This document shows, in pieces, positions 1 through 63,397 of a stretch of 64,000 bases of DNA. Both the position numbers and the translations under genes were made by a program. This DNA is from Narcine bancroftii. Its lineage: Eukaryota. The stretch's first letter is position 1; each line of letters opens with the position of its first letter. Under the pieces are notes generated by a model. The model was not told the DNA's origin. It saw only the letters and a program-made list of their open reading frames with translations, and did no database searches. The stretch covers positions 195,672,001-195,736,000 of the forward strand of contig NC_091469.1 in the NCBI RefSeq assembly GCF_036971445.1, read 5' to 3'.

Positions 1-1075
1 AGAAACTATTGGCAGTAGAGGGACAGTTTGTCTCACATAACAAATCTATCTGAGCTCTAATAAAGCTGCAAAATTCCAGTTTTCCAACAGTCACGAATTA
101 AGGCACCATCTATACACTGTGGCCTGTTTACCTGGCATTGTAACAGACAGAGTCAAGGGTGAATGATCAGAGCTATGTACTCAGTCTCCATTATCCTACC
201 CGCCAGTTGGATTGATGCCAAAAATAAATAAATTCTAGTGTGGGAATCGTGTTGTCTCGGATGTTGCCTTCTCCAGACATCTATTAAATTCAACTCTTTC
301 ATTAATGCCAGGGAAGATTTGGATGCCATGGCCCTTGTTACTTTCCTTGCTGACTTGTCCAAAACTGAATCGAGACAAAAGTTAAAATTCTCTCCAATCT
401 AAACATTCTCACACCCCTGTGTAATTTTCAAAAATATATTTTGTATAAATTGTTCGTCATCAAAATTCGGGGCATATATATATATTCACAAGTGTCCATG
501 ATTCTGAGTATATTTGACAATGAATCATCACAAATCTTCCAGCTGGGTCAACAACCATGCCTCAGACCCCCAGCGGAACATTTTTTCCTTTGAGGATAGC
601 CACTCCCATTGCTCTGCAATTAAAGGAGAACGTCACCACCTGGCCAACCCACTGACTTTTTAACTTTTACATGTTCTTGATTTGTGAGGTGGGTCTCCTG
701 TAGAAATACTATATCTGCTTACATATTTTTTTAGGTGCGCCAAAACTCTTTTTCTTTTTATCATCCCTTTCATCCCATTTATGTTAAATTCACAACTTTA
801 ATTGTCTTATCCCCCATTACCCAAGAGACTCTCCATTATTTTCCTCCCCCTCAATCCAGCTCATCTTCCACAGATCTCTGAAGCAGACGGCCATGCTCCA
901 AATAAAACCTAAACTAACTAAAACCAACAAATCTAAAAAAGAAAAAGACAAGGAATACCCCCCAAAAAAATCCCTCCCCCACCCCCCATTCTCTTCATCC
1001 TCCTTGATCTTCCCTTCCTCTCCCAACATCAATATCCAAGTTACTGGTGCCAACTCCTAATTATTTTGGAGTGTA
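1..1075 (-). mobile_element. Old L1/Tx1-like LINE: ORF2 APE endonuclease region and inter-ORF spacer (continues at 3477-4330)
   Basis: The minus strand near 760-660 reads KRKRVLAHLKK..ADIVFLQETHL. ORF 153..362 has LIDVWRRQHP..HTRI, typical of L1 EN. Frameshifts and stops are present. Confidence 0.85.
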
Positions 1076-2006
1076 CCTACTGCATCTATCTTTTTTTTTT
1101 AATTTTTTATTTTTCACACCATAAATCACATTAGCCATGATATACACTATTTCTTTTTCACACATATACAGTGACTTTTTCTCCCCCCCCCCTTTCCTCC
1201 CAAACCACCCCCCCACCCCCCCCCCTCTCATCCATTTTAGGTATACAATCTAGGTTGCATTAAGCCAGTCAGACAATGTTGTCATTCAACATAATTACAC
1301 CAAAAATTCTACTGAGTCCATTCTTTTCTTTCCTTCTCCTTCCATCAACTTAGGTACTGTTTGTCCCCGGTAGGTTTTCGCTATTGTATTTAATGTAAGG
1401 CTCCTATACTTGCTCGAATATTTCAATATTATTTCTTAACCTATCTGTTATTTTTTCTAATGGAATACATTTATTCATTTAAATTTAGTAGTTTCTTCCT
1501 TTTAATTTGGTTATGTATTCCATTAATATTTAAAGACATATAGTTCAGCGTAGCCCTTTTATATTTTGTTTATCTTCTCTTTCCGTTTTTCCATCATTAC
1601 CTTTCCTCCTTTTCCATTTCTGTTTTCTTATTTTCAACTCTTTATAAGACAACATTCCTACAACATCCAACATTTTCCTTATTCTCCTATTTCTATCTTA
1701 TTTATCCCCAATCTCCCCTTCACCTCCTGAGTTGTCCTTTATCCCTTGTCGGACAACCACATCTCCCCTCTCCATTTGGATTTGCGAATCCACTCGCAAG
1801 CGTCAACTGATTTTGCAGTGACTGCTATTTCCCCCCACCCCGCCTCCCCCAGAAAAGATTTCACTTTTCATATGTCACAAAGGTCACTCTTTTAATTCCC
1901 TCCTTATTCTCTCTATTCCATTACCTTCCCTTATTAATTCTTGTCTATACTATCTATATTTTCCTCTAAGTATGCTCATTGTCTCTATTCACTCTTATAC
2001 CTCTTT

Positions 2007-2150
2007 ACCCGCGTACATATCAATCGTGATCATTTTTACTCTCATTACCCGTCTTCATCCCTCAGTCTATTTTTGTCTTTACCCACATACATATCAATCG
2101 TGATCATTTTAACTCTCATTACCCGTCTTCCTCCCTCAGTCTATTTTTGT
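2007..2150. repeat. Two-copy tandem duplication, period about 74 bp, spanning the ORF1 stop codon
   Basis: accc..catatcaatcgtgatcatttt..ctctcattacccgtcttc.tccctcagtctatttttgt occurs at 2007-2076 and 2081-2150. Confidence 0.9.
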
Positions 2151-2890
2151 AATTGTTCTGCAAATTTTCGTGCTTCTTCTGGATCCGAGAATAGTCTGTT
2201 TTGTTGTCCTGGAATAAATATTTTCAATACCGCTGGATGCTTTAGTATAAATTTATACCCTTTCTTCCATAAAATCGCCTTTGCTGTATTGAACTCTTTT
2301 CTCTTCTTTAGGAGTTCAAAACTTATATCTGGATAAATGAAGATTTTTTGCCCTTTATACTCCAGTGGTTTGTTGCCCTCTCTTACTTTTTCCATTGTCT
2401 TCTCCAGTACCTTTTCTCTTGTAGTATATCTTAGGAATTTTACTACAATAGATCTTGGTTTTTGTTGTGGTTGTGGTTTAGAGGCCAATACTCTATGTGC
2501 CCTTTCTATTTCCATTTCATGCTGTAGTTCTGGACATCCTAGGGTCTTAGGGATCCACTCTTTTATAAACTCCCTCATATTCTTGCCTTCTTCATCTTCC
2601 TTAAGGCCCACTATCTTTATGTTATTTCTTCTGTTATGGTTTTCCATTGTATCTATTTTTTGAGCTAGTAGTTCTTGTGTCTCTTTAGTTTTTTTATTAG
2701 ATTTCTCCAATTTCTTTTTTAAGTCTTCTACCTCCATTTCTGCTGCTACTGCCCGCTCTTCCATCTTGTCCATTTTCTTTCCCATTTCTGTTAAGGTCAT
2801 CTCCATTTTATTTATTTTCTCTTCTGTGTTGTTTATTCTTTTTCTTAAATCCTTAAATTCCTGTGTTTGCCATTCTTTAAATGACTCCAT
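2141..2890 (-). CDS. L1 ORF1p (coiled coil, RRM and CTD; Transposase_22-like), 249 aa open; upstream N-terminal extension to 3325 is disrupted
   Basis: Heptad coiled coil followed by MENHNRRNNIKIVGLKE, EIERAHR, PRSIVVKFLRY, IFIYPDIS and HPAVLKI motifs. Confidence 0.9.
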   Translation of the reverse strand: MESFKEWQTQEFKDLRKRINNTEEKINKMEMTLTEMGKKMDKMEERAVAAEMEVEDLKKKLEKSNKKTKETQELLAQKIDTMENHNRRNNIKIVGLKEDEEGKNMREFIKEWIPKTLGCPELQHEMEIERAHRVLASKPQPQQKPRSIVVKFLRYTTREKVLEKTMEKVREGNKPLEYKGQKIFIYPDISFELLKKRKEFNTAKAILWKKGYKFILKHPAVLKIFIPGQQNRLFSDPEEARKFAEQLQK

Positions 2891-3476
2891 GTATCCTTTA
2901 ATAAGAGCAAGTATATCCTTTACCTTCCCTTTCTTTTCTTCTTCTATTTCTCTGTACTCTTCCTCTTCCTCTTCTTCTTCATCTGTTGTTTCTTTGGTGC
3001 CCTTTCCTCCTCTTTTTTCTTGTTTCTATTGTCTTCTGTGGTCTCTTCTTGCTGCAGGTGTTCTGCAGCTGTCGTTGCCGGCTGTGGAGATCGACTCCCC
3101 AGCTGGTCCCCCCTCCCGTCGGTGTGTTTTTTTTCATTCGCATCGCGCACTTTTACTCGGCTCTGCGAGCCATTTTTGTAGTCCATTATTTACCGACCTG
3201 AGGGAGCGGGTTTCTCTCTCCGCAGCGGGCCTCTTCGGACAGGTAAGGCCTTCACCTTTTTCCTCCTTTGTCTTCTCTTCCTCTCTTCTTACCGTTGCTT
3301 TCGATTTTTCTTTTTTTGTCGCCATCTTCTTTCCACCTTTATACTCACTTTTCTGTAACTTTTATTTCTGTGCCTTTGTGTTTTTCTTTGTTTTTCCCAA
3401 CTTTTCTGGAGAGGGCTGGAGTTCACCGTCCGGCCACTACTCCATCACGTGACTCCTCCCCCTACTGCATCTATCT

Positions 3477-4330
3477 GATTCCTTCACTGTTCTTTCCACT
3501 TTCTTAGATCTCCCCATATTAATTCTTCATTTAACTTTAACATTCATCTTTTAAAACAATAAAACATTCCTATCTAAATTCTTATCATTCACAATATTTA
3601 CAACCAATTATTACATTAATTCCCCCTTTTATGCCTTTTTTCCTCCAGTAGTATTTAGTCCCTTAAGGATAGCAAGGGTTTTACATTGCACATTGCCTCC
3701 CTAGTGTCTGTAAAACATTTCTTCTCCCCTTCAGGTCTTATTAAAGTTTTTGGGTGAAGGAGGGTGAATTTTATCCCCTTCTAATTTTTTGTTAACTTGG
3801 TCAAATTCTTTACTGCACCTTAACAGTGCAGTGCAGATAGAAGAGGACCTTCCTTCCTCCATATTCTGCTACCCACCCCCCTTTCCTTCGCTCCCACTGC
3901 CGCCACCTGCAAAATTCTCACTCTGACTTGGTAGCAAAGAAATTTGACCATGATGAAGCAGGGTTGTTGATCTGGGTCTGGTTGGGGGAGGGGGGAATGT
4001 GAGAGCCCTCTCATTTTCTAATTCTCCCCCAATTTTATCCAATCCCAGCACTCCTGGGATCCATTTTCTGAAGAATCCCATCGGATCTCTTCTCTCCACA
4101 CCCTCCTTCACCCCCACTATTTTAATATTATTCCTTCTGCTACAATTTTCCAGGGACTCTCCCATATCTTATCCCTTTCCCTCACCCACACACTCATCAC
4201 TCTTTCACTCTCTTCCAATCTCTCCTCCATTCTCTCAGATTATCCAGTCTTTATTTTATCACATTTTGGTCCATCACAAGTGTTTTTAACATTTTTTTTT
4301 AATTTGCCCCATGGCCTCCATGAACCTTTA
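3477..4330 (-). mobile_element. Old L1 ORF1 remnant (5' part of the element at 1-1075)
   Basis: ORF 3869..4165 reads LENCSRRNNIKIVGVKEGVE..FFRKWIP..ENERA; degenerate. Confidence 0.85.
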
Positions 4331-4740: not shown

Positions 4741-5640
4741 TGTATTGTATGAGCTGGCCCACCCCCTGAACCTGTGACTCCTCCCTACTCAGTTGAGGAT
4801 ATCAGGGAGCTGAGATGGAGCTGCCCGGTCTGTGTCTATTGGCCAGACAAAGCCCACCTCATCAAAGCCACCTACCCCTTCAAGTGGCTGAGCATGGACT
4901 TCAAGGGCCCCTTTCCGTCCAACAACAGGAACGTATGCTTCCTGAATATCATTGACAAATACTCCCGCTTCCCTTTCACCGTCCCCTGGCCGGACATGAC
5001 CATGACCACAGTCATAAAGGTATTGCATAGCATATTCGCTCTGTTTGAATACCCCTGCTATATCCATAGCAACTGGGGATCCTCATTTATGAGCGAGGAG
5101 CTGCGCCAGTACCTGCTGGCCAAGGGCATAGCCACGAGCAGGACCATGGGTTATAAGCCCCAGTTAGAAGGGGAGAATGCTATCATCTGGAAGACAGTCC
5201 TCCTAGCCCTCAGATCAAAAGGCCAACCCATCTCCTGGTTGCAAGATGTCCTCTCTGAGCCACTCTATGCCACCAGGTCTCTCCTCTGAACCACTATTAA
5301 TGTGACACCACATGAAAGGCTCTTTTCCTTTCCCAGGAAGTTGGCGTCAGGAACCACACTGACATCTTGGCTGAAGACCCCTGGGTCCGAACTGCTTCGG
5401 AGGCATATCAGATGCCACAAGACTGACCCTCTGGTCGAGAAGGTCCATCTCCTCCACACTAATTCCCAATACGCTTACGTGAGTACCAGGATGGAAGGCA
5501 GGACACCATTTCCATCTGAGACCTGGCTCATGCAAGGGACCCCTTGACCAACCAATCAACATCCCCTCACAGTAACCCTGGCCAACCAGCCACACTAATT
5601 GCACCTGACGCAGCACCCCAACCCCAGACTGAGCAATTCA
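4741..5640 (+). mobile_element. Ty3/Gypsy integrase fragment
   Basis: ORFs 4774..5289 and 5302..5547: PFKWLSMDFKGPFPS..FLNIIDKYSRFPF..YIHSNWGSSFMS..TPHERLFSFPR (rve core, decayed). Confidence 0.88.
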
Positions 5641-23600: not shown

Positions 23601-23880
23601 AAATGACAACTTTTCTGCAATTACCAATCTACTCTCCCAAACCCATATCTCTTACACCCTTATCCCTATTAAAATTATTACTCACCTTCAGCTTGGACAT
23701 TCTCTTGTACTGCTTTCATCTTAGCTCTCTTGATCCTAAGGAACACACAGACTTGAATGAATACAAAGACTTATTCAGTGCCCAAATAAGCTGGACGACA
23801 TAAAGCTGTTAAGGCCCTGGTGTCAACAGGCAAAACTGCTCACTAGTCTATTATCACCTTGAACTGCAGAGTTAACCACG

Positions 23881-24798
23881 TGTGCCAAAATGTTTGGCCT
23901 GGAAGTCAGCCTGAAGAAAACTGAGGTCCTCCATCAGCCAGCTCCCCACCATGACTATCAGCCCCCCCACATCTCCATTGGGCACACAAGACTCAAAACG
24001 GTCAACCAGTTTACCTATCTCGGCTGCACCATTTCATCAGATGCAAGGATCGACAACGAGATAGACAACAGACTCGCCAAGACAAATAGCGCCTTTGGAA
24101 GACTACACAAAAGAGTCTGGAAAAACAACCAACTGAAAAACCTCACAAAGATAAGCGTATACAGAGCTGTTGTCATACCCACACTCCTGTTCGGCTCCGA
24201 ATCATGGGTCCTCTACCGGCATCACCTACGGCTCCTAGAATGCTTCCACCAGCGTTGTTTCTGCTCCATCCTCAAAATTCATTGGAGCGACTTCATCCCT
24301 AACATCGAAGTACTCGAGATGGCAGAGGCCGACAGCATCGAATCCACACTGTTGAAGATCCAACTGCGCTGGGTAGGTCACGTCTCCAGAATGGAGGACC
24401 ATCGCCTTCCCAAGATCGTGTTATATGGCGAGCTCTCCACTGGCCATCGTGTCAGAGGTGCACCAAAGAAGAGGTACAAAGACTGCCTAAAGAAATCTCT
24501 TGGTGCCTGCCACATTGACCACCGCCAGTGGGCTGATCTCGCCTCAAACCGTGCATCTTGGCGCCTCACAGTTCGGCGGGCAGCAACCTCCTTTGAAGAA
24601 GACTGCAGAGCCCACCTCACTGTCAAAAGACAAAGGAGGAAAAACCCAACACCCAACCCCAACCAACCAATTTTCCCTTGCAACCGCTGCAACCGTGTCT
24701 GCCTATCCCACATCGGACTTGTCAGCCACAAACGAGCCTGCAGCTGACGTGGACACTTACCCCTCCATAAATCTTCGTCCGCGAAGCCAAGCCAAAGT
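23881..24798 (+). mobile_element. Young 5'-truncated RTE-clade (BovB-like) LINE; intact 285-aa ORF C-terminus
   Basis: ORF 23890..24747 has FGLEVSLKKTEV, FTYLGCTIS, AVVIPTLLFGSESW, QLRWVGHVSRM, RLPKIVLYGEL and a terminal CxxC..H zinc finger. Short 3' UTR ends gaagccaagccaaag. Confidence 0.93.
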
Positions 24799-35548: not shown

Positions 35549-38500
35549 TTTTTTTTTAATTAAAGATTTTCAATCAACATAGAGTTAAAAATAAACAAAA
35601 TCAAAGAAACATCACAGATATAGAAAATAAAATACCAAAACCAAACTACATGTTGATGTACAAAGGAAGAATCAACACATAATCACAATTATCAAATTCT
35701 GCACCATTGTTTATAAATGCAAAATTACATACCACCCTTAAAAGAAAAGTAGGAAGCAGAAAAAAGAAAAGAAAAGAGAAAAAGAGAAAGACACTCTCCT
35801 CAAAGGAAAAATAAAAATAAATGAAGAGGTAAATCTCCTATCTGATGTGACAAAATCATGTTTTCCAAAAGCATTAATTACCTACAGATGAAACATTATA
35901 TGATTCATACAGAGCTTAATTCCTCCCTTAAGGGATAAATGTCTTGACTTAGACATCACTAGGGATACTGGAGATAGTGGTATTGGAAACCAGAGAGGGG
36001 GGGGGGGCAAATATTCAAAGGTTAACCTCTGTGTATCTTAAATACAGGTTTCATATTCTTGAAAACGTAATAATTTCTGAGGTTATAAGTAATCTCCAGG
36101 GGAACACAACTATGCATTACTGACTTCCAGCGGATCAGACTCAGTTGGGGATCAGATTTCCAAGTAATGGCTATGCATTTCTTGACTACTGCTAAAGCAA
36201 GTTTAACAAATTTTAATTGATATTTCAACAGCCTCATTTTGGGTCTTAAATCTGCTAATTTACCAAATAAAAACAATTCTGGCACCTCAGGATATTGAAT
36301 TCTGGTAATTTTGTTCCAGGAGGTTCCCCAAATCTTCCTAGAAGGATCTCACCTTAGAGCATGACCAGGTCAAATGCAAAAAAGTCCCCATATCTTGACC
36401 ACATCAAAAACATAATTCAGATTTCAATTTATTTAATTTTTGTGGAGTAAGGTACAGCTGATGCAAAAAAATTATATTGCACCAGCCTAGACCTTACATT
36501 AATTGCATTGCTTATGTTGTCCCAACATAGGTCGGACCATAAAAATTGATCAATTTCTTTACCCAAATCTGATTCCCATTTCTTTTAACTTATCTAGTCC
36601 TTGATAGGGGCTTCTGCCTGGAGTAAGAAATACATTTTTGAGATAAATTTCTTTGTGATCCCCTTTCAAACCAGAGTCTCTATTTCAGTACATTGTGTTA
36701 TGGTCAGAGCAAGACCTAACTTATCCCTTAAATAAGATCTTAATTGAAAATAGCAGAAAAAAGGATGTATTTAAAACTCCAAATGTATTCCTGATTTGTT
36801 CAAATGTCATAAATTGTCCCTGCTCAAAACAATCTTCAATATATTTAATCCCATGTAGTGAGGTTACTTTGGCTACAGCTCGGTTATAGCCCTGAGGCTG
36901 TAGCTCGAATCCGCAGGAGAAGAAAGAAAGAAACACACACCAGTAGAGTGTATTCAACACTGAGTTTATTCATTGGCAGCTCTGCCTTTCATAGTCAGCT
37001 CAGTCACGTCACCACCGGGGCGTGGCTTGAGTGGGTCAGCTGCTGGTTGTTTACCTAGGATGCTTGGGCTCCGATTGGGCACCTTCAATCCACCGGCAGT
37101 GATTGGCCAGTTTCACTGCTCTGCCGGAGGCCTATGGAAACGGGCGTTTCAGCCCACATGATGTTTTGCCGGTCATTTGACAGCCATTTCCTGTGTCGGC
37201 CTGAGGCACGAGCCATGGGCTGCTGCACAAACCCCCGCTACCCCCCAGAGTGGGCAATTGGGGCACTGTTTTTAGGAGGCTGAACTTTAGGCTGTGGGGT
37301 CGGGTGAATGATGGGATGGTCAAAGTCCAAGTAGGCTAGTTTCAACTGGTCAAGTGTGAAAGTCTCTTCCCTACCGCCAATGTCCAAAACACAGGTGGAG
37401 CCATTGTGTCTGAGGACATGGCCCCTCATAAGGCCACTGTAGAGATGGCTAGTGAGCCCCACGCCAAACAAATAAACACGTATTTACAGTCAGTAAAGTT
37501 CTTTGGGATGTAAGTGCAGGCTTGGCCGTGGGGTCTAAGTTTAATGGGGGCCAGAGTGCCTAGGCGCTCACGTAGTCAGGACATTGTGGCCGCTGGGGGT
37601 TCCCCTAAGTCTTCAGAGGCCATCACAAATTTGCTCGGTATAACTAGGGGTGTGTCATAGACTTTCTTGGCAGAGGATGCCTCGAGATCCTCCTTGAGTG
37701 CAGTGCAGATGCCTAACAGGACCCAAGGGAGTGCATCAGCCCAGTTAAGGCTGCCTTAAGGTGTTTGTGGAACCTCTCCACAAACTCGTTGGCCTGTGGG
37801 TGATACGCCATAATATGGTGGAGTTGGGTCCCCAGGGCGTGGGCTAAAGCAGTCCATAGACTAGAAGTGAATTGGGCCCCCCTGTCCAATAAGGTGTTCG
37901 GGGACCCCAAAACGTACTATCCAAGTGTTGAGTAAAGCTGTGCGCATACTTCTGTGGCACTGCCTCTGGGCCATCTGGTCAACCATTGTAAGAAGGTAAC
38001 GTGTGCCTCTGGATACATGTAGGGGCCCCACAATGTCAATGTGCATGTGGCTGAAGTGGCAACATGCTGGCTTGAATGTCTATGGTGGATCTTTGATATT
38101 AGACTGGATTTTGGATGACTGGCACTGATTACAAGTCCTGGCCCACAGGGCAACCTCTTTGCAGAGCCCATGCCCCCATACCTGTTTGCCACCATTTTGT
38201 CTGCAGTCCTGATAGCGAGGTGAGCCAAGTTGTCGACCTAGTCAAAAACCAGCCTCTTCCATGCAGCCAGAATGACAGGGCAGGGTTTACCCATCGAGAT
38301 GTCAGAGAGCAGCGTGCGATCACTGGGGGCCATCTAGATATCCTCCAGTTGTAAGCCAGTGAGCGCAGTACAATATGCTGGAATGTCAGGGTCTGCTTGC
38401 TGCTCATCAGCCAGGGGTTGATGCCTGGTCGATGCCAGGGGTTGATGCCAGGGGTAGGGTCATGCACCGCCAAGATAGCATCGACCACCACGTTGGATTT

Positions 38501-41370
38501 ACTGGCTGTGTTCAATGTCCAATGTAAATTGGAAATGTAGGACAGCTGTTGGCTGGCTGACCACAGATCTGTCACTTTACTGAAGGTGAAGGTAAGAGGT
38601 CTGTGGTCCATGGAAATTTTGAACTTCCTGCCCTCCAGGAAGTAACGTAAGTGCCAAATTGCCAGGTATAAGGCTAACAGTTCTCTTTCAAAGGCACTGT
38701 ACTTGAGCTCTGGTGGTCTGAGGTGTTTGCTGAAGAAGGCCAGCAGTTGTCATTGTTCATTCACCAATTCTTTGAGTACACCCCCAACCGCTGTGCTAGA
38801 GGTGTCTGTCATGAGGACGGTTGGGGCATCTGTCCATGGGTGCATGAGGAGAGTGACCTTGGTCACCTCGTGGGTCCATTTTATGTTTTTATTGGGTCCT
38901 CCATGAGGGGAAAGAATGGGCTCATGATGTGGGCTGCTGCAGGTATGAAGCGGTGATAAAAGTTGACTATACCTGCAAACTCTTGTAGTCCCTTCACTGT
39001 CGATAGCATGGGGAAAGAGCGGATAGCAACCACCTTAGTGGGTAACAATCTGATATGATGGCCCTGGAAGTCAATAGTCTCTCAGCCAAACTGGCAATTG
39101 GCCGGGTTGATGGTTAGGCCGAAATCAGTCAGCCTGGAAAATAATCGTTTTAAGTGGGCGGTGTGCTCAGCGCGGGTGTTGCTGGCAATTAAAATATAGG
39201 TAGATTAAAGCAAAATGCAGAACCTGGCCCACTGCATCCATCAGCCTCTGGAAAGTCTAAACCATGTTTTTTAACCCGAAGGGCATGTGGAGAAATTCAA
39301 ACAATTCAAAGGGTGTTATGATGGAGGTTTTTGGCATGTCTTTGGGGTATGCTGGGATCTGGTGATAGCCCCTGATGAGGTTAACCTTTGAGAATATCTC
39401 TGCCCCTTGCAGGTTAGCAGTGAAGTCTTGGATATGGGGCACGGGATATCTGTCCGGTATGGTGGCATCATTGAGGCAGCGGTAGTCTCCACACGGCATT
39501 CAGCCACCTGGTGCGTTGGGGACCAGGTGGAGAGGGAAGGCCCAAGGACTATCGAAGCGCCGCACGATGCTGAGATCCTCCATCTTTTTGAACTCGCCCT
39601 GGTTAGGTTGAGTTTCTCGGGAGGAGACGCCGCGCCCAGGTGTGGAAGGGAGTGCCTTCTGTAATGATTTTGTGCCTCACCCCATGTTTGGGTTCTGCCG
39701 AATGGAAGTGAGGTGTGGTAATGGAGGGGAATTCCACTAGGACCCAAGTGAATTCATTGATGGCAATACTCACTGAGTGCAGGTAGAGACTGGTGAGTTC
39801 AGTGCCCTTGAGTGAGAGTGACTGAAATGTCCGGGAGTGCACCAACCAGTGCCCCTTGATATCCACCAGGAGTGAGTTGGCCCACAGAAAATCTGCACCC
39901 AGTAATGGCTGTTGCATCTGAATTGTCTGTCCCCAAAGTGTAGGGGAATGGTGCGGGTGCCGAATTTTTGGATTTTGGAGCCATTTGCCACTCAAAGCTC
40001 CTGACCCACTTTGCTGCAGCAGGCCTCCAGGCTGTTTGGGGGAATTATGCTGTATTGTGCCCCAGTGTCCACCAAGAAATGTCAGCCCAACAGGGAGTCT
40101 TGAATGTGTAGCAGTCTATGAAGTTGGCTGGTCGTTGCAGCCATTAATGGTGGCCAGCCTGGCTGTTACCCTGGAATGCACAAGGGGAGTGGCATTGATG
40201 GGCCTTGGAATCCCACCATAGGTAATAGAAATAGTACTGCTCACTGGTGGGGTGTGGCATTCGGGTGGTCAGTTGGTGGTCTTCCTGGCCCGGCACTATT
40301 GATGCGGTGCTGTCACCTGCTTGAGCGAAGCACAGGCATCCCTCTTCACCGCCCATAACACGTCTGCTCGGGCAGCCACCCTCCTGGGGTCATCGAAGTC
40401 TTCTTCTGCGATGAGCAGCCGGATGTCCTCGGGGAGTGTCTCCAGGAAGATCTGCTGGAACTGCAGGCAGGAGGTGTGGCCATCATTGAGAGTGAGCATG
40501 TCGCTCATGATGGCAGAGGGGCCCTGTCCTCCAAACCATCGATATGCAACAGTCGGGCAGCACACTCACGCTTTGAGAGCCCAAAAATGTGGCTCAACAG
40601 CTCTTTGGTGGCCACATACCTTCCTTGTTCCAGGGGCTGCTGGATGAAGTTGCTGATACGGGTTTCAGTGTCCTGATCTAGGGTGCTGACCACGTGGTAG
40701 TAGCACGTGTCATCAGTGGAAATCCGTCGAATGGCGAACTGTGCCTCAGCTTACTGGAACCGCACCTGTGTTTGCGACATCCAGAAGCTGGGCAGATTCA
40801 GTGCTACGGTGTTGATTGTAGGTTGATCTTCCATCTTCAGGTCGAAAGCGCCATTTGGACTAGTTGGGGTCACCACTGTGGCGAGGTCACTATGGCTACA
40901 GCTGGGTTATAGCTCTCAGTTATAGCCCTGAGGCTGTAGCTCGAATCCGCAGGAGAAGAAAGACACACACACACACATACCAGTGGAATGTATTCGACAC
41001 TGAGTTTATTCAGTGGCAGCTCTGCCTTTTATAGTCAGCTTGGCTGCATCACCATGGCTTGAGTGGGCCAGCTGCCGATTGGTTACCTCGGATGCCTGGG
41101 CTCTGCTTTGGCCCCCTGTGATCCACCGGTGATGATTGGCCAGTTTCACCGCTCTGCCAGCAGCCTCTGGAAATGGGTGTTTCAGCCCGCATAATGCTTT
41201 GATGGTCGCCACGTTCGACGGCTATTTCATGTGTCGGCCTGAGGTCCGGGCCGCAGGCCGCTACACCCAGACTTAAGCTATTCTTAAGGCAAAATTTGGA
41301 AGTACCTAACTTTTTCCCTAATAAGAACTTATTGTTACCTCAAATTATGATTTCTGTTTTGGGTTCAGTG
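35549..41370 (-). mobile_element. 5'-truncated L1 3' portion (35549-36853 and 41270-~41370), interrupted by a Gypsy provirus
   Basis: Poly(T) at 35549; ORF 36022..36285 has KLALAVVKKCIAITWKSD..CVPLEITYNLR; GIKYIEDCFEQGQFMTFEQI runs up to the LTR junction. Confidence 0.85.
36854..41265 (-). mobile_element. Complete decayed Ty3/Gypsy provirus (gag-PR-RT-RH-INT), about 4.4 kb
   Basis: LTRs at 40877-41265 and 36854-37227; 4-bp TSD ccca at 36850-36853 and 41266-41269; PBS TGGTGACCCC (tRNA-Trp-like) next to the 5' LTR; G-rich PPT at about 37228-37250; RT motif PCGDYRCLND..DRYPVPHI; INT motifs HIDIVGPL and YHPQANEFVERFH. Confidence 0.95.
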
Positions 41371-49439: not shown

Positions 49440-51660
49440 ACCTGGCCTCAAAACATCTTTCCACAAGAAAACCAAAGTTGAAGATCTCAAGGAACATGCG
49501 AAAGAATATGTAGCCACCCAAGCCCACCAGAGTTAGCACCTGTGAAGAGACTCATGTCTTCCATCCCATCAACAATTAGATTTAACTTGATAAACAATAG
49601 TAAATCCAGGAGTTAATTCACTGCAAATACAAGTGCTCCTTGTTTAGAAACTCTACCATACCTTAAAATGAAGGAAATAGCAATACAGGCATCTTTAAGA
49701 GGAAGTTTCATCAGAATGCCTGTGGTTTAAATACCAGATAATGGATAAAAACACCACAGGAGGCCCAGAACCAGGCCTTGACATGTGCATGTGTGGTCCA
49801 TCTGTGGCCCAAATATGTGTGAAGGTGAACTTCTGATGGGAGTCAGCATTTCCAAGACCCCCCACAACTGCAATTCTGTCCAAGTGCCTTTAACTTCAGC
49901 TCACAGCCAACCTAGCTGCCATTCCTGATTTACATCCCATCTGGATGATAATCTCAGAAACAGAAATATTTGCAAAGAAAATCTTCAGTCATGAATCCCC
50001 AGCACTCCTCATCTGAGAAGGAATCATGTTCAGGAGCCCCTGAAAATGCTGTTATCACGATCATCTTCGAGAAAGGGAACAAATGGGATTTCCCTGCTGT
50101 CTGAGAATAACTTTTCATAGCAAGACAGAGGAAAATATAAACTATCTCCCATATACAGGGAAATACCTCTCATTAAATGCAGAAGTTGATGATGAAATTC
50201 ACCATCACCTTCAGAGCACTAACACAGCACTTGGTGGACTGAAGAAAAGAGCATCTGAAGATCTACATCTCAAACCCAGCACTAATATAGTGGGCAGCAG
50301 TGATCCCTCTCTTTCTATTAGCATCTGAGACTTGGACTGCCTATGACAAGTATCTCAACACATTGAAGAGATAATCACTATATCTGTCTCTTTCAAATCC
50401 ATTTGAAAGTTCAACTCAATGTCAGTGTCTTCTCCCAGCCCAATGTCCTAGTACCGAGGTCCTAGTTCCACCTAGTCAGACCATTTGACAGGCCACATTA
50501 GCCACATGCACAACAACAAACTCCTGAAACAGGCACTCTATTCTGAGTTATTTATGGGAAGGGATTACCAGGTTTAAAGATTCAAAATCTTCTCAAAATC
50601 CCCTTGAAAATATATAATCAATTTCCATGGGAGAAGTTATGCTCTGGAACGATGAGAAATACAATAAATACGAGGCTGCGTATGATACAATATAATTGGT
50701 TACACAGACTATACATTACACCGCAAAAGTTAAATAAATGGGACCCAACAGTATCTGATAGATGTTTTCGATGTAAAAAAGAAAGGGGAACAACAATTCA
50801 TGCAATCTGGACATGTGAGAGAGTAGAAAAATTTTGGGATGATCTCAATCAGATATTAAATAAAATAACAGAAAACAATATACCAAAGAATCCAGAGATC
50901 TTTCTCCTAAGTAACATAAAAAATAAAGAATTTGGAATTGACTTGGAAGATGCACAAAAAAGATTTGTCAAGATAGCCCTAGCCGTAGCAAAAAAATGTA
51001 TTATGTCAACCTGGAAAATGGAAGATAATTTGAAAATACAACAATGGTATATAGAAATGAATAAATGTATTCCATTAGAAAAAATAACATATAGTTTAAG
51101 AAATAATATTGAAATATTCGAACAAGTATGGGAGCCTTACATTAAATACAATAGCGAAAACCTACCGGGAACAAACATTACCTAAGTTGATGGAAGGAGA
51201 AGAAAAGAAAAGAATGGACTAAGTAGAATTTCTGGTGTATTTTTGTTGAATGACAACATTGTCTAACTGAATTAATGCAACCTAGATTGTATACCTAAAA
51301 TGGATGAGAGGGGGGGGGGTGGGGGGGTGGCTTGGGAGGAGGGAGGGGGGAGGGAGAAAAAGTCACTGTAAATGTGTGGAAAAGAAAAAGTGTACATCAT
51401 GGCTATTGTGATTTATGGTGTGAAAAATAAAAAATTTAAAAAAAAAAAAAAAAAATATATAATCAATTTCCACGAACTTATCCTTGAGTCCATGTGCCAG
51501 GAAAACACAGAAGTGTACAGTAAATGATGGAAGCAATGCACTGCTTCACAACTGCCCACGTACCTCACCCAGCCACACCTCCTGCCCCATTGATGTAGAA
51601 TTTGCAGTTCCCATATTGCCTTAATCAACAACTGCAGAATCCAAAGAACGACCATAAATG
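49440..51660 (+). mobile_element. Old RTE-clade LINE remnant, interrupted by an L1 at 50628-51451
   Basis: ORF 50083..50328 YLPYTGKYLSLNAEVDDEIHHHLQSTNTALGGLKKR corresponds to RTE FxYLG..IDDEIxxRL..AFGRL. The left boundary is approximate. Confidence 0.7.
50628..51451 (+). mobile_element. Young 5'-truncated L1: intact ORF2 C-terminus, 3' UTR and poly(A)
   Basis: TSD aaaatatataatcaatttcca at 50607-50627 and 51452-51472; open frame with QYNWLHRLYITP and the CFRC..HAIWTC zinc knuckle; 3' UTR nearly matches 1092-1480. Confidence 0.95.
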
Positions 51661-53694: not shown

Positions 53695-55052
53695 CATGGG
53701 TAGAAATAGAACTAAATGTTGTTCAGAATACTTCAATGTTGGCAATTTTAGGGTCCTCTTAAACTTCTTCCCTATATAAATTAACTGATAATCTGATAAT
53801 TAAACACAGTTTGAGAATATGGGCACAATTTAGAAGGTTTTTTTTAATTTCTAAGTTTTTCTCTTGCCAGCTCAATTATATCCAATTATATCCAAATAAC
53901 ATTCTTTGCAAGACTCTCCCTTTAATGACTGGCATAGAATTGGGCATTAAATGTTTTAAAGACCTTTTCTCATTGACAACAATTTTGCATCTTTTGAACA
54001 ACTAGTGGTAAAATTTAACTTATTTAAAATTCACTTTTTTGGATATTTACAAATCAGACACTTCAGTTCAATCTCAGATTTCTGTTTTTCCTGTAATCCC
54101 TGAGGTGAATATTCTTGATAATTTTTTTGAACTACAACCTCCTTATAAAAGCTTAATATCTCTTATTTATGACAAAGTGGTTAACTTAAGACAAGCCTCA
54201 TTAGTTAAAATCAAGAACATCTGGGAACAGGATTTGAACCTTTCGCTCTCCAATGAGGTTTGGGATTCTATTTTTAATTTGATTAACACTACTTCCTTTT
54301 GTGCACAGCATTATTTGCTGCAATTTAATACAGTCTACAGAGCACATATGGCTAAAGTTAAACTGTCCCATTTTTATTCAGATATAAATCCTTTATGTAT
54401 CAAATGTAAAATAGGTGATGCCTCTTTAATTCATATATTCTGGACTTGCCTTAGCTTAGAAAAATTTTGGAAGGATGTTTTTCTAACATTATCGGCTATT
54501 ATAAATTTAAAATTGGAACCTTGCCCTGTAATTGCTCTATTTGGAATATCTCAAGATCTTGATGTATTTACTGACTTCCATTCAGAGCTGAATTTTATCT
54601 TTTACTTTGTTGATACCCAGACATGCAATTTTGATCAAATGGAAAGATAATACCTCACCTACACATGCACAGTGGCTAAATGATATTATATCTTGCTTAA
54701 ATCTAGAAAAAAAATATTAAAGATTCAAATATTAAATTCCAAAAGACATGGGGCTCATTTATCGACTACCATCATAATCTTAAGATTTAGTGTTGTTCAG
54801 AAATTTTGGCGCGGTGCTGTCCCTCTCCATGAAGTTGTTACTTAATTCATAATTAAGTCCATTTTCAACCTTGCTTTTGTGTTTAGTTTTGTTATTATGA
54901 TGTTTTATTTCATTATTAAGAATGTGCTCTGGATTTCATAATTATGATCATATTTGTAATTTTTTTTCTAATTTTGTAGCACATTGTATAATTATTCCAT
55001 TCAATTTTTATTACTTTAAATACCAATAAAAATATTTTAAAAAGAAAGAAAA
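53695..55052 (+). mobile_element. 5'-truncated L1 3' portion (family related to the insert at 6977)
   Basis: ORF 54039..54650 has WEQDL..LLQFNTVYRAH..CIKC..HIFWTC; AATAAA and A-rich tail; flanking repeat caatatgtta at 53685-53694 and 55053-55062. Confidence 0.88.
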
Positions 55053-57490: not shown

Positions 57491-58133
57491 CAGGTACTCC
57501 CTGACATGCAACCTATACAACTTACAACCATCTTCACATATATATTTTTTTCATAAAAAAATATAAAATTTACATGGTTTATATTGTATTTGACAAACTA
57601 TGACAGGGATACAGGGCATGTAAGAGCCAAATGTGCATATTTAGCTTGTTATTCAGCGTCCTGGGGTCCATAGGCTGGGCATGGCCATTTTGATTACTGT
57701 GCACATGCGCGAGTCTTCGGTTGGCACATGTGCGGTGGGTTCACGTATGGGAGTTTGGTTGGTGCATGGGCGAGAGCTAAGGGCATGAATTCAATGTCGT
57801 AAGGGTGCTTAACTTTCGCATACGCCAACTGAACTCCCATACGTGAACCCACCGTGCATGCACCAACCGAAGACTCACGCATGTGCAAAGAAATCAAGGT
57901 GGCTGTGTCCCACCTATGGACCCCAGGATGCTGACTAACAAGGTAAGAACACAAAATTTGGTTCTTACATGCCCTGTATTCCTATTATAATTTGTCAAAT
58001 GCAACATTTGATTAAAAAGTTTGCTTTAATAATTTGGTACTCCATGTGCATGGGCAAAATTCTAACTTACATACATTTCAAGATACAACTGATCCTTCAG
58101 TCCCAATTGCAGTTTTAAGTCAGGGTGTACCTG
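57491..58133. mobile_element. Tc1/mariner-pogo (Tigger-like) MITE with a long internal palindrome
   Basis: TIRs caggtactccctgac / gtcagggtgtacctg; TA TSD at 57489-57490 and 58134-58135. Removing it restores the host frame DSDVYSACAVTRAM. Confidence 0.88.
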
Positions 58134-61100: not shown

Positions 61101-61529
61101 TTGATTTGATCAGTGGCCATTTTAAGGAAGCAGCACTTGGAGAAGCATTTCTTTGAAGGGATACTGTGCTGAAGTGGCCTCCTATGTTAATAGACAATTG
61201 GTCAGATATCTCTCCGTAAGGAGAATGAGTACACCCCACCATGGCCAAAGGAACTGTCACTTTTGAAGGGGGATTAGTGTGCCACACCATGACCAAAAGG
61301 GAAGGTCACTATTTTGGCTGACCCATGAAAGAGTACTGGAAGCTTTGTGAAAATCACTCATGTTGTTTCCCCTACATCAGGAAAAGGGGAGACCCGAAAA
61401 GGACATAACTCTGGAAACACCTTGACAAGAATTGAGCTTACAACAGTCTGTCACCTCAGCCTTTCCCACCTACCCCATGATTACTTTTTTTGAATACTTT
61501 AAAGCCTGCATGTCAACACTGGATTTTCT

Positions 61530-62465
61530 TAGTCACACAATCGTTACACAAATTTCTCCAAACATTTTCATCAATCTTTCTATCTAAATCCAATTCCCAT
61601 TTCATTCTTGATATATGAAGATCTGGTTTAGGCATTTTGTAACAACTTATACATTTCAGAAATGAATTTTTTTGCATCATCTTTAGTAAGTAATAGTTCT
61701 AAAGTAGATTGTCTAGGTAATTTTAAATCATAACCCAACTGTAGATTAGTGCAGTACAATTTTTTACATCAATTATATTTGACTCCGTACAAACTGATAA
61801 TTTTTCAACTTAATTCTTCAGATCTATGTTTTAGATGTGGCCAAGAAGTAGGTACCTTTTTTCATTCGACCTGGACTTGTTCTAAGGTTAAAAGTTTTTG
61901 GTTGCAAATGAAATTGATTTTAGAGCAGATATTAAAAATAATTTTACCTTTTGACCTAATGTTTTTTTTCTAGGAAACATTAACCCTATAGCTTTAAGAT
62001 TGAGATTGAATATGTATCAAATTGAATTTTTGTGTTTGGCGGTTTCTAAAAAGTATTTAGCTATTACCTGGAAATCTGACTCAGTCTTAGGGATGAAAAG
62101 ATGGCATAATGAAATGAAAGCCTGTATTTCTTTAGAAAAGATTACATATAATTTGAGAGACAATTTTTTATTTTTGCTAAAATTTGGAGCCCATATCTGA
62201 AAATTATTGGTGCTAAAATTTGATCTCTCGGTCCGCTTTGATGGATGCCGCCACTCCTGCAGCCAAGAAGTTTTAAAGTTTTAAAAGTGATTGTACTAGA
62301 TAATGATCTCCTTTTTCTCTCTTTGTAGGTGGGGAAGGGAGGAGGGAGTGTATTACTGGGGTGGTTTTTATATAAAAATTATTAATCACATTATGTCTGT
62401 ATTAAAATGTAGTAACTAATGTTATGTTATGTGATTTTAAACTTTAAGTAAAATATTTTTAAAAA
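61530..62465 (+). mobile_element. 5'-inverted L1 insertion inside the second Gmr1 LTR
   Basis: TSD aacactg(g/a)attttct at 61515-61529 and 62466-62480. 61530-61740 is ORF2 on the minus strand; from 61741 RLVQYNFLHQLYLTP..CFRC..HSTWTC is on the plus strand, followed by an A-tail. Confidence 0.88.
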
Positions 62466-63042: not shown

Positions 63043-63397
63043 CAATGGTTCACAACCTTTTTCTTTCCACTCACATACCATTTTAAGTTTTTCCTGTGCT
63101 GTAGGTGCTCTGTGATTAGTAAGGAATTACTTAAGGTGGTATGTGGGTGGGAAGAAAACGTTTGAAAACCACTGCTTTAATAGTACCTCATTTCATAACT
63201 CCAAAGGAAATGGGCCAATGACAATTTTTCTCAAGCAAAATATTTCAGTAACAATTGGGTCAAGAGCAGTGATTCTCAACCTTCCCTTCCCACTCACGTA
63301 CCACCTTCAGCAATCCCTTACTAATCACAGAGCACTTATGACATAGGGATTACTTAAAGTGGTATGTGAGTGGAAAGAAAAAGATTGAGAACCACTG
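63043..63397. mobile_element. Composite hAT/Charlie-like MITE with four TIR copies
   Basis: CAGTGGTTCTCAAC-like TIRs at 63043(+), ~63174(-), ~63268(+) and 63397(-); 8-bp TSD ctgtatgc / ctgtttgc. Confidence 0.82.

What the first reader, a model, noticed from the sequence alone, without database searches (positions are those of the whole stretch)
1076..3476. ORF1-only 'half-L1' element: a candidate non-autonomous HAL1-like family in a cartilaginous fish
Seen: a 2.37-kb unit with a perfect 16-bp TSD, a 5' UTR starting GGGAGGAGTCACGTG, a 249-aa open ORF1 core, a spacer, a 3' UTR and poly(A). ORF2 is reduced to its first ~25 codons (ATLNYMSLNINGIHNQIKRKKLLN, preceded by AGG where the start ATG would be expected). 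These are joined at about 1480 to the last ~45 codons (MNKCIPLEKIT..SENLPGT), so EN, RT and the zinc knuckle are gone. Known: HAL1 elements are ORF1-only L1 derivatives described mainly from mammals. Inference: this may be an independently evolved non-autonomous family that retains ORF1p and borrows ORF2p in trans.
Basis: partly seen in the sequence, partly recalled or inferred. Interest (0 to 1): 0.75.

Follow-up and report, generated by a model that had tools for sequence, protein, structure and literature searches.

The report
Decayed ORF2-less LINE-1 in electric ray
This 2.4-kb LINE-1 jumping-gene copy has lost nearly all of its copying-enzyme gene and has a broken first gene; it is likely one dead member of a shortened family, probably in an electric ray, that would borrow the enzyme from full-length relatives, a way of life already known from mammals (HAL1).

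Summary
The anatomy is real: a 2,369-nt minus-strand L1 with an exact 16-bp TSD, both ends, and ORF2 cut to 25 N-terminal plus 42 C-terminal codons, joined at 1480 with 1 nt of overlap (about 3.5 kb missing, estimated from a distant L1). Its nearest ORF1 is a 401-aa Narcine bancroftii protein (387 of 393 aligned residues identical). Against it, this copy's ORF1 has two frameshifting deletions; the "249-aa core" is only residues 153-401, so this copy does not retain ORF1p.

No genome was held, so junction copies could not be counted. Contigs of 4 public runs give indirect support for a family. One diverged contig lies gap-free across the junction. The ORF2 start loss (AGG) and a stop in the conserved ORF2 tail (TAG) appear in a large share of other copies in 3 of 4 runs, while control sites look private. 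Copies that continue into ORF2 on each side are also plentiful, and the two variants are not phased with the junction.

Verdict: likely (about 0.65) a dead copy of a HAL1-like family; rival, a one-off deletion (0.28). A known kind; I found no report of it in cartilaginous fish.

The parts
3461..3476 (.). Target-site duplication, 5' side (16 bp)
   Evidence: exact match to 1076-1091
3326..3460 (-). 5' UTR, 135 nt
   Evidence: between the TSD and the ORF1 start fixed by P0002, P0003 and P0009
2141..3325 (-). ORF1, broken: three pieces matching P0009 residues 1-60, 66-120 and 124-401; two frameshifting deletions (21 nt in all; about 14 nt near 3146 and 7 nt near 2979, split inferred from the protein); first-ATG product 63 aa; open 249-aa core from 2890
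   Evidence: Pfam Transposase_22 only weak (E 0.048)
1558..2140 (-). Inter-ORF spacer, with a 74-bp tandem duplication at 2002-2150 and an apparent deletion of about 17 nt near 1970 relative to other copies
   Evidence: loose ends at 1969 and 1972, table 7
1480..1557 (-). ORF2 5' remnant: AGG in place of ATG, then 25 codons of the endonuclease start; an in-frame ATG lies 6 codons further on
   Evidence: the ATG-giving letter at 1556 is 52-100% of depth in the 4 runs
1480..1480 (-). Deletion junction; 1 nt fits both sides; ends are not GT..AG on either strand; about 3.5 kb missing (estimate)
   Evidence: loose ends of continuing copies at 1480 in all 4 runs; homologous span in distant L1 locus L001, 3864 to about 7400
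1350..1480 (-). ORF2 3' remnant: last 42 codons, out of frame with the 5' remnant, with TAG in place of the conserved Trp codon at 1406-1404
1092..1349 (-). 3' UTR with G-rich tract, AATAAA at 1111-1106 and A tail (1100-1092)
   Evidence: sequence; alignment to the copy at 51 kb
1076..1091 (.). Target-site duplication, 3' side (16 bp)
   Evidence: X1 record 1 matches the flank 950-1083 with no difference
50607..51472 (+). Second copy of the same L1 family: 5'-truncated, 21-bp TSD (50607-50627, 51452-51472), ORF2 tail intact with Trp; fixes the 3' breakpoint

Best explanation
This is a complete-ended LINE-1 insertion that lacks almost all of ORF2 and has a frameshifted ORF1, and it is likely a dead copy of a multi-copy ORF2-less (HAL1-like) family whose RNA would be reverse-transcribed and inserted by the ORF2 protein of full-length relatives. 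Steps. (1) Shown: both L1 ends, poly(A) and TSD, so it was inserted as a retroposon. (2) Shown: ORF2 is deleted between codon 26 and the last 42 codons, with 1 nt of overlap. (3) Inferred: the deletion arose once in an ancestral copy, not at this locus, and the shortened unit was then copied; with ORF2 free of selection it picked up AGG at the start and TAG in the tail. (4) Inferred from mammalian L1: the parent copy kept its own 5' UTR promoter and made ORF1p, which helps an ORF1-only RNA use ORF2p in trans. (5) Shown: this copy's ORF1 is broken; inferred: this happened at or after insertion.
For: (4 of 19 listed runs, window 950-1990 only). (a) X1 record 5, a 347-nt contig of depth 6, lies without gaps over 1430-1556, with 50 letters left of position 1480 and 76 right, and 20 other letters. 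An intact endonuclease continuation differs from the window at 21 of the 30 letters 1450-1479 (my hand count on the X11 loose end), so the record is not an intact copy on that diagonal; with 20 differences it is not this locus either. (b) At 1405 (TAG here) the listed other letter leaves 28%, 11%, 29% and 0% of depth in X1, X5, X7 and X11; at 1556 (AGG here) it leaves 46%, 41%, 48% and 0%. At control sites 1292, 1303, 1413 and 1445 it leaves 0.0-0.3% in X1, 0.0-0.1% in X7 and 0.1-5.8% in X5. Allowing for unlisted third letters, X1 still gives at least about 18% and 21%. (c) The Trp replaced by TAG is kept in 6 of 7 other ORF2 tails at hand, so copies with TAG are probably not autonomous. (d) X7 is another organism and study, so the sharing is not only in the possible source sample. 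(e) An intact sister ORF1 exists (P0009; 387 of 393 residues, same C-terminal end). (f) ORF1-only L1 RNA is mobilised in trans in cells and needs functional ORF1p (PMC11260458, passages).
Against: No count of junction copies was possible: no genome is held, and only 32 of 11,592 pieces are listed, with one bridging record among them. AGG and TAG are not phased with the junction or with each other; both could sit in full-length copies. Human ORF2 translation is AUG-independent (PMC11485995, passage) and an in-frame ATG follows 6 codons later, so AGG alone need not disable ORF2. Copies that continue into ORF2 give the top X1 loose ends at 1480 (57 and 25 contigs). This locus has several other lesions (two in ORF1, about 17 nt near 1970, a 74-bp duplication), so it is deletion-prone. 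Large deletions are common in fish non-LTR elements (PMC3381678, passages). Record 5 is 7-15% diverged with a 78-nt unlike middle, which fits poorly with a copy only 1-2% from its sisters, and its letters could not be inspected. Contig depth is not copy number.
Confidence: 0.65

Rival explanations
1. One-off internal deletion: a full-length young L1 of an AGG/TAG-bearing subfamily lost about 3.5 kb during reverse transcription (template jump) or by end-joining after insertion; the junction never moved.
For: 1-nt overlap, typical of end-joining. Several other lesions in the same copy. Copies continuing into ORF2 are abundant on both sides of 1480 in the runs. Frequent large deletions in fish elements (PMC3381678).
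Against: X1 record 5 bridges the junction on the same diagonal and is not this locus. A stop at a conserved Trp is shared by roughly a fifth to a quarter of depth in two DNA runs, which an autonomous subfamily should not tolerate (inferred).
Confidence: 0.28
2. Variant within the family reading (its 0.25 is part of the 0.65, not added to it): the junction is a family trait, but the family does not need its ORF1, so it is a non-coding bipartite L1 derivative and not a true HAL1.
For: ORF1 is broken twice in this copy although substitutions are few (6 of 393 residues differ from P0009).
Against: The whole ORF1 region is retained. PMC5786205 (passages) lists only RTE, Ingi, Vingi and R2 as sources of ORF-less bipartite LINEs. 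An intact sister ORF1 exists, though its ORF2 state is unknown.
Confidence: 0.25
3. Assembly collapse or mis-join of two L1 copies.
For: No listed contig carries this locus's own junction with zero differences, and no listed piece spans the whole stretch.
Against: An exact TSD on both sides, no N in the window, a matching flank contig, only 1 nt of overlap at the join (a collapse needs a long repeat), and a diverged bridging contig.
Confidence: 0.04
4. Spliced L1 RNA that was then reverse-transcribed (SpIRE-like; the name is recalled, not from a call).
For: The kept 3' part begins just after an AG in the copy at 51 kb.
Against: The lost segment starts AC or CT on the sense strand, not GT or GC, in the loose ends of X1, X7 and X11; the antisense strand has no donor either.
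Confidence: 0.03

Closest known systems
HAL1 (half-L1) of mammals (Smit 1999; Bao and Jurka 2010, as cited in PMC5753468 and PMC5786205; the 2010 paper itself was not held)
   Same: L1 5' UTR, ORF1, 3' end, poly(A) and TSD with ORF2 lost; would depend on L1 ORF2p; independent origins are part of the known picture.
   Different: Host is a cartilaginous fish; parent L1 is still about 94-98% alike; both ORF2 stumps are still readable; ORF1 of this copy is broken; copy number not counted.
ORF1-present bipartite non-autonomous LINEs: HeT-A (Jockey clade), Ag-Sponge (CR1 clade) (PMC5786205, passages)
   Same: Made by internal deletion, keeping ORF1 and both ends.
   Different: Other LINE clades and insect hosts.
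Young Narcine bancroftii L1 family (ORF1 models P0009 = XP_069785941, P0001 = XP_069740564, P0003, P0002)
   Same: ORF1 98.5% identical to P0009 over aligned residues; ORF2 tail and 3' UTR 93.6% identical to the copy at 51 kb.
   Different: ORF2 deleted; ORF1 frameshifted.
Ordinary internally deleted non-LTR copies in fish (PMC3381678, passages)
   Same: A large deletion plus several small ones in a young element.
   Different: Those are single events; here a second bridging contig and shared ORF2-disabling letters point to descent.

Membership tests
L1 clade element (parent) | L1-type ORF1 | tested here: met
   P0001, named LINE-1 ORF1 protein, 93% identical, E 8e-158; Pfam Transposase_22 only weak, E 0.048
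L1 clade element (parent) | ORF2 with endonuclease, RT and Cys/His tail in the family | tested here: inconclusive
   Both stumps map to the ORF2 ends of L1 locus L001; the copy at 51 kb keeps the zinc-knuckle region; loose ends show the endonuclease continuing. No full-length parent copy was seen.
L1 clade element (parent) | Poly(A) tail and TSD | tested here: met
HAL1-type element | L1-derived, both ends kept, ORF2 absent | tested here: met
HAL1-type element | Encodes an intact ORF1p (this copy) | tested here: not met
   two frameshifts and a stop after 63 codons; open core is residues 153-401 of 401
HAL1-type element | Intact, selected ORF1 in the family's source copies | not testable with these tools
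   no genome held; P0009 is intact but its ORF2 state is unknown; ORF1 was outside the stretch laid
HAL1-type element | Many loci share the junction and have their own TSDs | tested here: inconclusive
   one diverged bridging contig among 32 of 11,592 listed pieces; shared AGG and TAG; no flanks of other copies seen; one copy in the window
HAL1-type element | Mobilised in trans by L1 ORF2p | not testable with these tools
   needs a cell assay; inferred from PMC11260458
Spliced integrated L1 (SpIRE-like; recalled) | GT..AG at the deletion ends | tested here: not met
   table 7

The most novel reading that the evidence does not exclude
Electric rays carry a young, high-copy HAL1-type family born from an L1 that is still 94-98% identical, present in at least two of the sampled organisms, whose source copies keep an intact ORF1 under selection and lost ORF2 in datable steps (deletion, start codon, tail stop). 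It would be the first HAL1 I could find described in cartilaginous fish, and a case where the birth of a half-L1 can be read next to its parent.
Probability: 0.4. Interest if true: 0.5.

Novelty: new member of a known kind. Interest (0 to 1): 0.3.

Why it matters
If the family is real, it extends half-L1 parasites from mammals to cartilaginous fish. It would also give a very young parent-parasite pair for asking whether a non-autonomous L1 needs its own ORF1p, since broken and intact ORF1 copies could be compared for their number of descendants. If the junction is unique, it is an ordinary deleted L1 and matters little.

Tried and rejected
No whole genome is held, so the direct junction BLAST could not be run. 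A 24-nt junction pattern found 0 matches in JGI metagenome contigs; uninformative, since ray DNA need not be there. A 49-aa antisense frame across the junction found 0 proteins among 1.84 billion representatives; uninformative. ORF2-tail searches gave 2 longer and 1 similar-length unnamed proteins and no Narcine model, against 4 Narcine ORF1 models; not used, as annotation filters may explain it. No RNA holder is on record among the 19 runs; X5 is RNA only by guess, so nothing is said on expression. Spacer versus 3' UTR depth ratios (0.79, 0.16, 2.67, 1.48) and absolute depths at 1405 versus 1556 were computed but not used, because contig depth cannot rank parts. The lack of more bridging pieces is not evidence: a minimal junction contig is about 60 nt and the shortest listed pieces are 62-93 nt. 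I first read the ORF1 end as a third frameshift; P0009 ends the same way, so that was dropped. Splicing was rejected on the breakpoint letters. Earlier scan notes: none for this genome or sequence. Literature searches for HAL1 or ORF2-less L1 in sharks, rays or fish gave no such report: 0 papers; 3 papers; passages of PMC5381603 read, no HAL1; listings only. Repbase and Dfam could not be searched, Bao and Jurka 2010 was not held, and no supplements were read; any of these may list non-mammalian HAL1 families.

Full report
Observation. The element lies on the minus strand at 1092-3460 (2,369 nt) between exact 16-bp direct repeats at 1076-1091 and 3461-3476 (1.6e-5 expected by chance). Reading 5' to 3' it has a 135-nt UTR, ORF1 (3325-2141), a spacer with a 74-bp tandem duplication, AGG plus 25 codons of the ORF2 start, a junction at 1480, the last 42 codons of ORF2 in another frame, a 3' UTR, AATAAA and a short A tail. 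The window holds no N. The element sits between the ORF1 (3869-4168) and the endonuclease start (about 780-150) of an older L1 of the same orientation.

Family and host. The ORF1 search returned 6 proteins from 1,114 candidates, the best three from Narcine bancroftii (93%, 75%, 87%). The cluster of the best hit holds P0009, a 401-aa protein with 387 of 393 aligned residues identical to this ORF1. N. bancroftii is an electric ray (Torpediniformes), so the host is likely this species or a close relative. A second copy of the family lies at 50628-51451: 5'-truncated, with a 21-bp TSD and an intact ORF2 tail, 367 of 392 nt identical to the element's 3' part.

ORF1 is broken. Against P0009 the element's ORF1 is 21 nt short and reads in three pieces (residues 1-60, 66-120, 124-401) across two frameshifts. 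The first ATG gives 63 aa. An open 750 nt is no sign of selection in a copy this young. These lesions were judged against proteins only; ORF1 was outside the stretch laid on reads.

The junction. No genome is held, so I laid contigs of 4 of 19 listed runs on 950-1990. X1 may be the source sample; X5 is another study of the same organism; X7 and X11 are other organisms. Loose ends at 1480 appear in all four (X1 57 before and 25 behind; X5 19 behind; X7 13 before; X11 1 and 2; 24 of 525 rows shown). They read as the continuing endonuclease on one side and the continuing ORF2 tail on the other, and they overlap by one letter. The lost segment does not begin with GT on either strand, so splicing is unlikely. 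The homologous span in a distant L1 (L001) is about 3.5 kb, which would make the parent about 5.9 kb.

Is it a family? Two results point that way. First, X1 record 5 (347 nt, depth 6) lies gap-free over 1430-1556, 50 letters left of position 1480 and 76 right, with 20 other letters. The same 20 is printed for its second piece, so it may be a per-record total; the record is 7-15% diverged. An intact endonuclease continuation differs from the window at 21 of the 30 letters 1450-1479 (hand count on the X11 contig end), so record 5 is not an intact copy, and it is not this locus. Second, the two letters that disable ORF2 here are shared. At 1405 (TAG for Trp) the listed other letter leaves 28, 11, 29 and 0% of depth in X1, X5, X7 and X11; at 1556 (AGG for ATG) 46, 41, 48 and 0%. 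At 1292, 1303, 1413 and 1445 it leaves at most 0.3% in X1, 0.1% in X7 and 5.8% in X5. Forty of 57 rows are shown. From X1's tally of change types, and assuming hidden rows are below the smallest shown share (about 20%), the window's own letter holds at least about 18% at 1405 and 21% at 1556. The Trp is kept in 6 of 7 other ORF2 tails at hand.

What weighs against. Only 32 of 11,592 pieces are listed, and short junction contigs fall below that list, so there is no count. The shared letters are not phased with the junction. AGG need not disable ORF2: human ORF2 translation is AUG-independent (PMC11485995, passage) and an in-frame ATG follows. Copies continuing into ORF2 are abundant. This locus carries several other lesions, including about 17 nt missing near 1970 (loose ends). 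Large deletions are common in fish non-LTR elements (PMC3381678, passages). Record 5 is more diverged than a young family would predict, and its letters could not be seen. Depth of contigs is not copy number.

Mechanism. Most likely (0.65) a full-length L1 lost about 3.5 kb of ORF2 once, by template jump or end-joining, kept its promoter, ORF1 and 3' end, and was then copied by ORF2p of full-length relatives. AGG and TAG would have accumulated in source copies, and this copy then lost its ORF1 frame. The insertion marks, the deletion and the broken ORF1 are shown. Descent of the junction is inferred. Trans-mobilisation is inferred from mammals, where an ORF1-only L1 RNA moves with an ORF2p driver and needs functional ORF1p (PMC11260458, passages). 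Rivals: one-off deletion (0.28), mis-assembly (0.04), splicing (0.03). Within the family reading, the source copies may not need ORF1 (0.25).

Comparison with what is known. HAL1 is a non-autonomous L1 derivative encoding only ORF1p that arose several times in mammals (PMC5753468, passages); HeT-A and Ag-Sponge are the same design in other clades (PMC5786205, passages). The element works like HAL1 if the family is real. As a member, it meets the layout test, fails the intact-ORF1 test in this copy, and is inconclusive on copy number. Searches for such elements in sharks, rays or fish found no report, but Repbase, Dfam, Bao and Jurka 2010 and all supplements were out of reach. Earlier AI notes list ORF1-only LINE derivatives in at least 5 other genomes (13 findings, 8 shown); these are unchecked and only lower the novelty. 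PMC2912911 (passages) and PMC5872511 (passages) added nothing decisive.

Verdict. Real structure, dead copy, likely a new member of a known kind. Interest 0.3; 0.5 if a young, ORF1-selected family is confirmed.

Noticed in passing
window 150-780 and 3869-4168 (-): An older L1 (endonuclease start and ORF1 remnants) hosts the element in its inter-ORF spacer, in the same orientation.
   Followed up: partly
window 61522-62220: L1 ORF2 3' piece with 61522-61741 on the minus strand and 61743-62220 on the plus strand: looks like a 5'-inverted (twin-priming-like) insertion in a fish L1.
   Followed up: no
window 50607-51472: 5'-truncated copy of the same young family with a 21-bp TSD and a long A tail.
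   Followed up: yes
window 36067-36852 (-), 53697-54711 (+): Further decayed L1 ORF2 3' pieces from other subfamilies.
   Followed up: no
run X11: Organism D holds spacer and 3' UTR contigs 97-99% alike to this element at very low depth (20-28), with ATG and Trp intact, while organism A gives depths near a million: the family may have expanded in one lineage only, or moved between species.
   Followed up: no
P0002, P0003, P0009: Narcine RefSeq models named after host genes (FAM122B, GrpE-like, mitochondrial transcription elongation factor) are in fact L1 ORF1 proteins.
   Followed up: partly
window 3328-3320 (-): The ORF1 start codon lies within a 9-nt word like the YY1 site of the human L1 promoter (motif recalled, not tested).
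   Followed up: no
window 23863-24747 (-); 4753-5289 (+); 38129-40115 (-): ORFs that look by eye like an RTE-type LINE 3' end and gypsy-type integrase, RT and RNase H remnants; the first had no Pfam hit, the others were not scanned.
   Followed up: no
window 57581-58007 and 63043-63397: Two self-complementary (palindromic) repeats, 73-79% alike to their own reverse complement, possibly non-autonomous DNA transposons.
   Followed up: no
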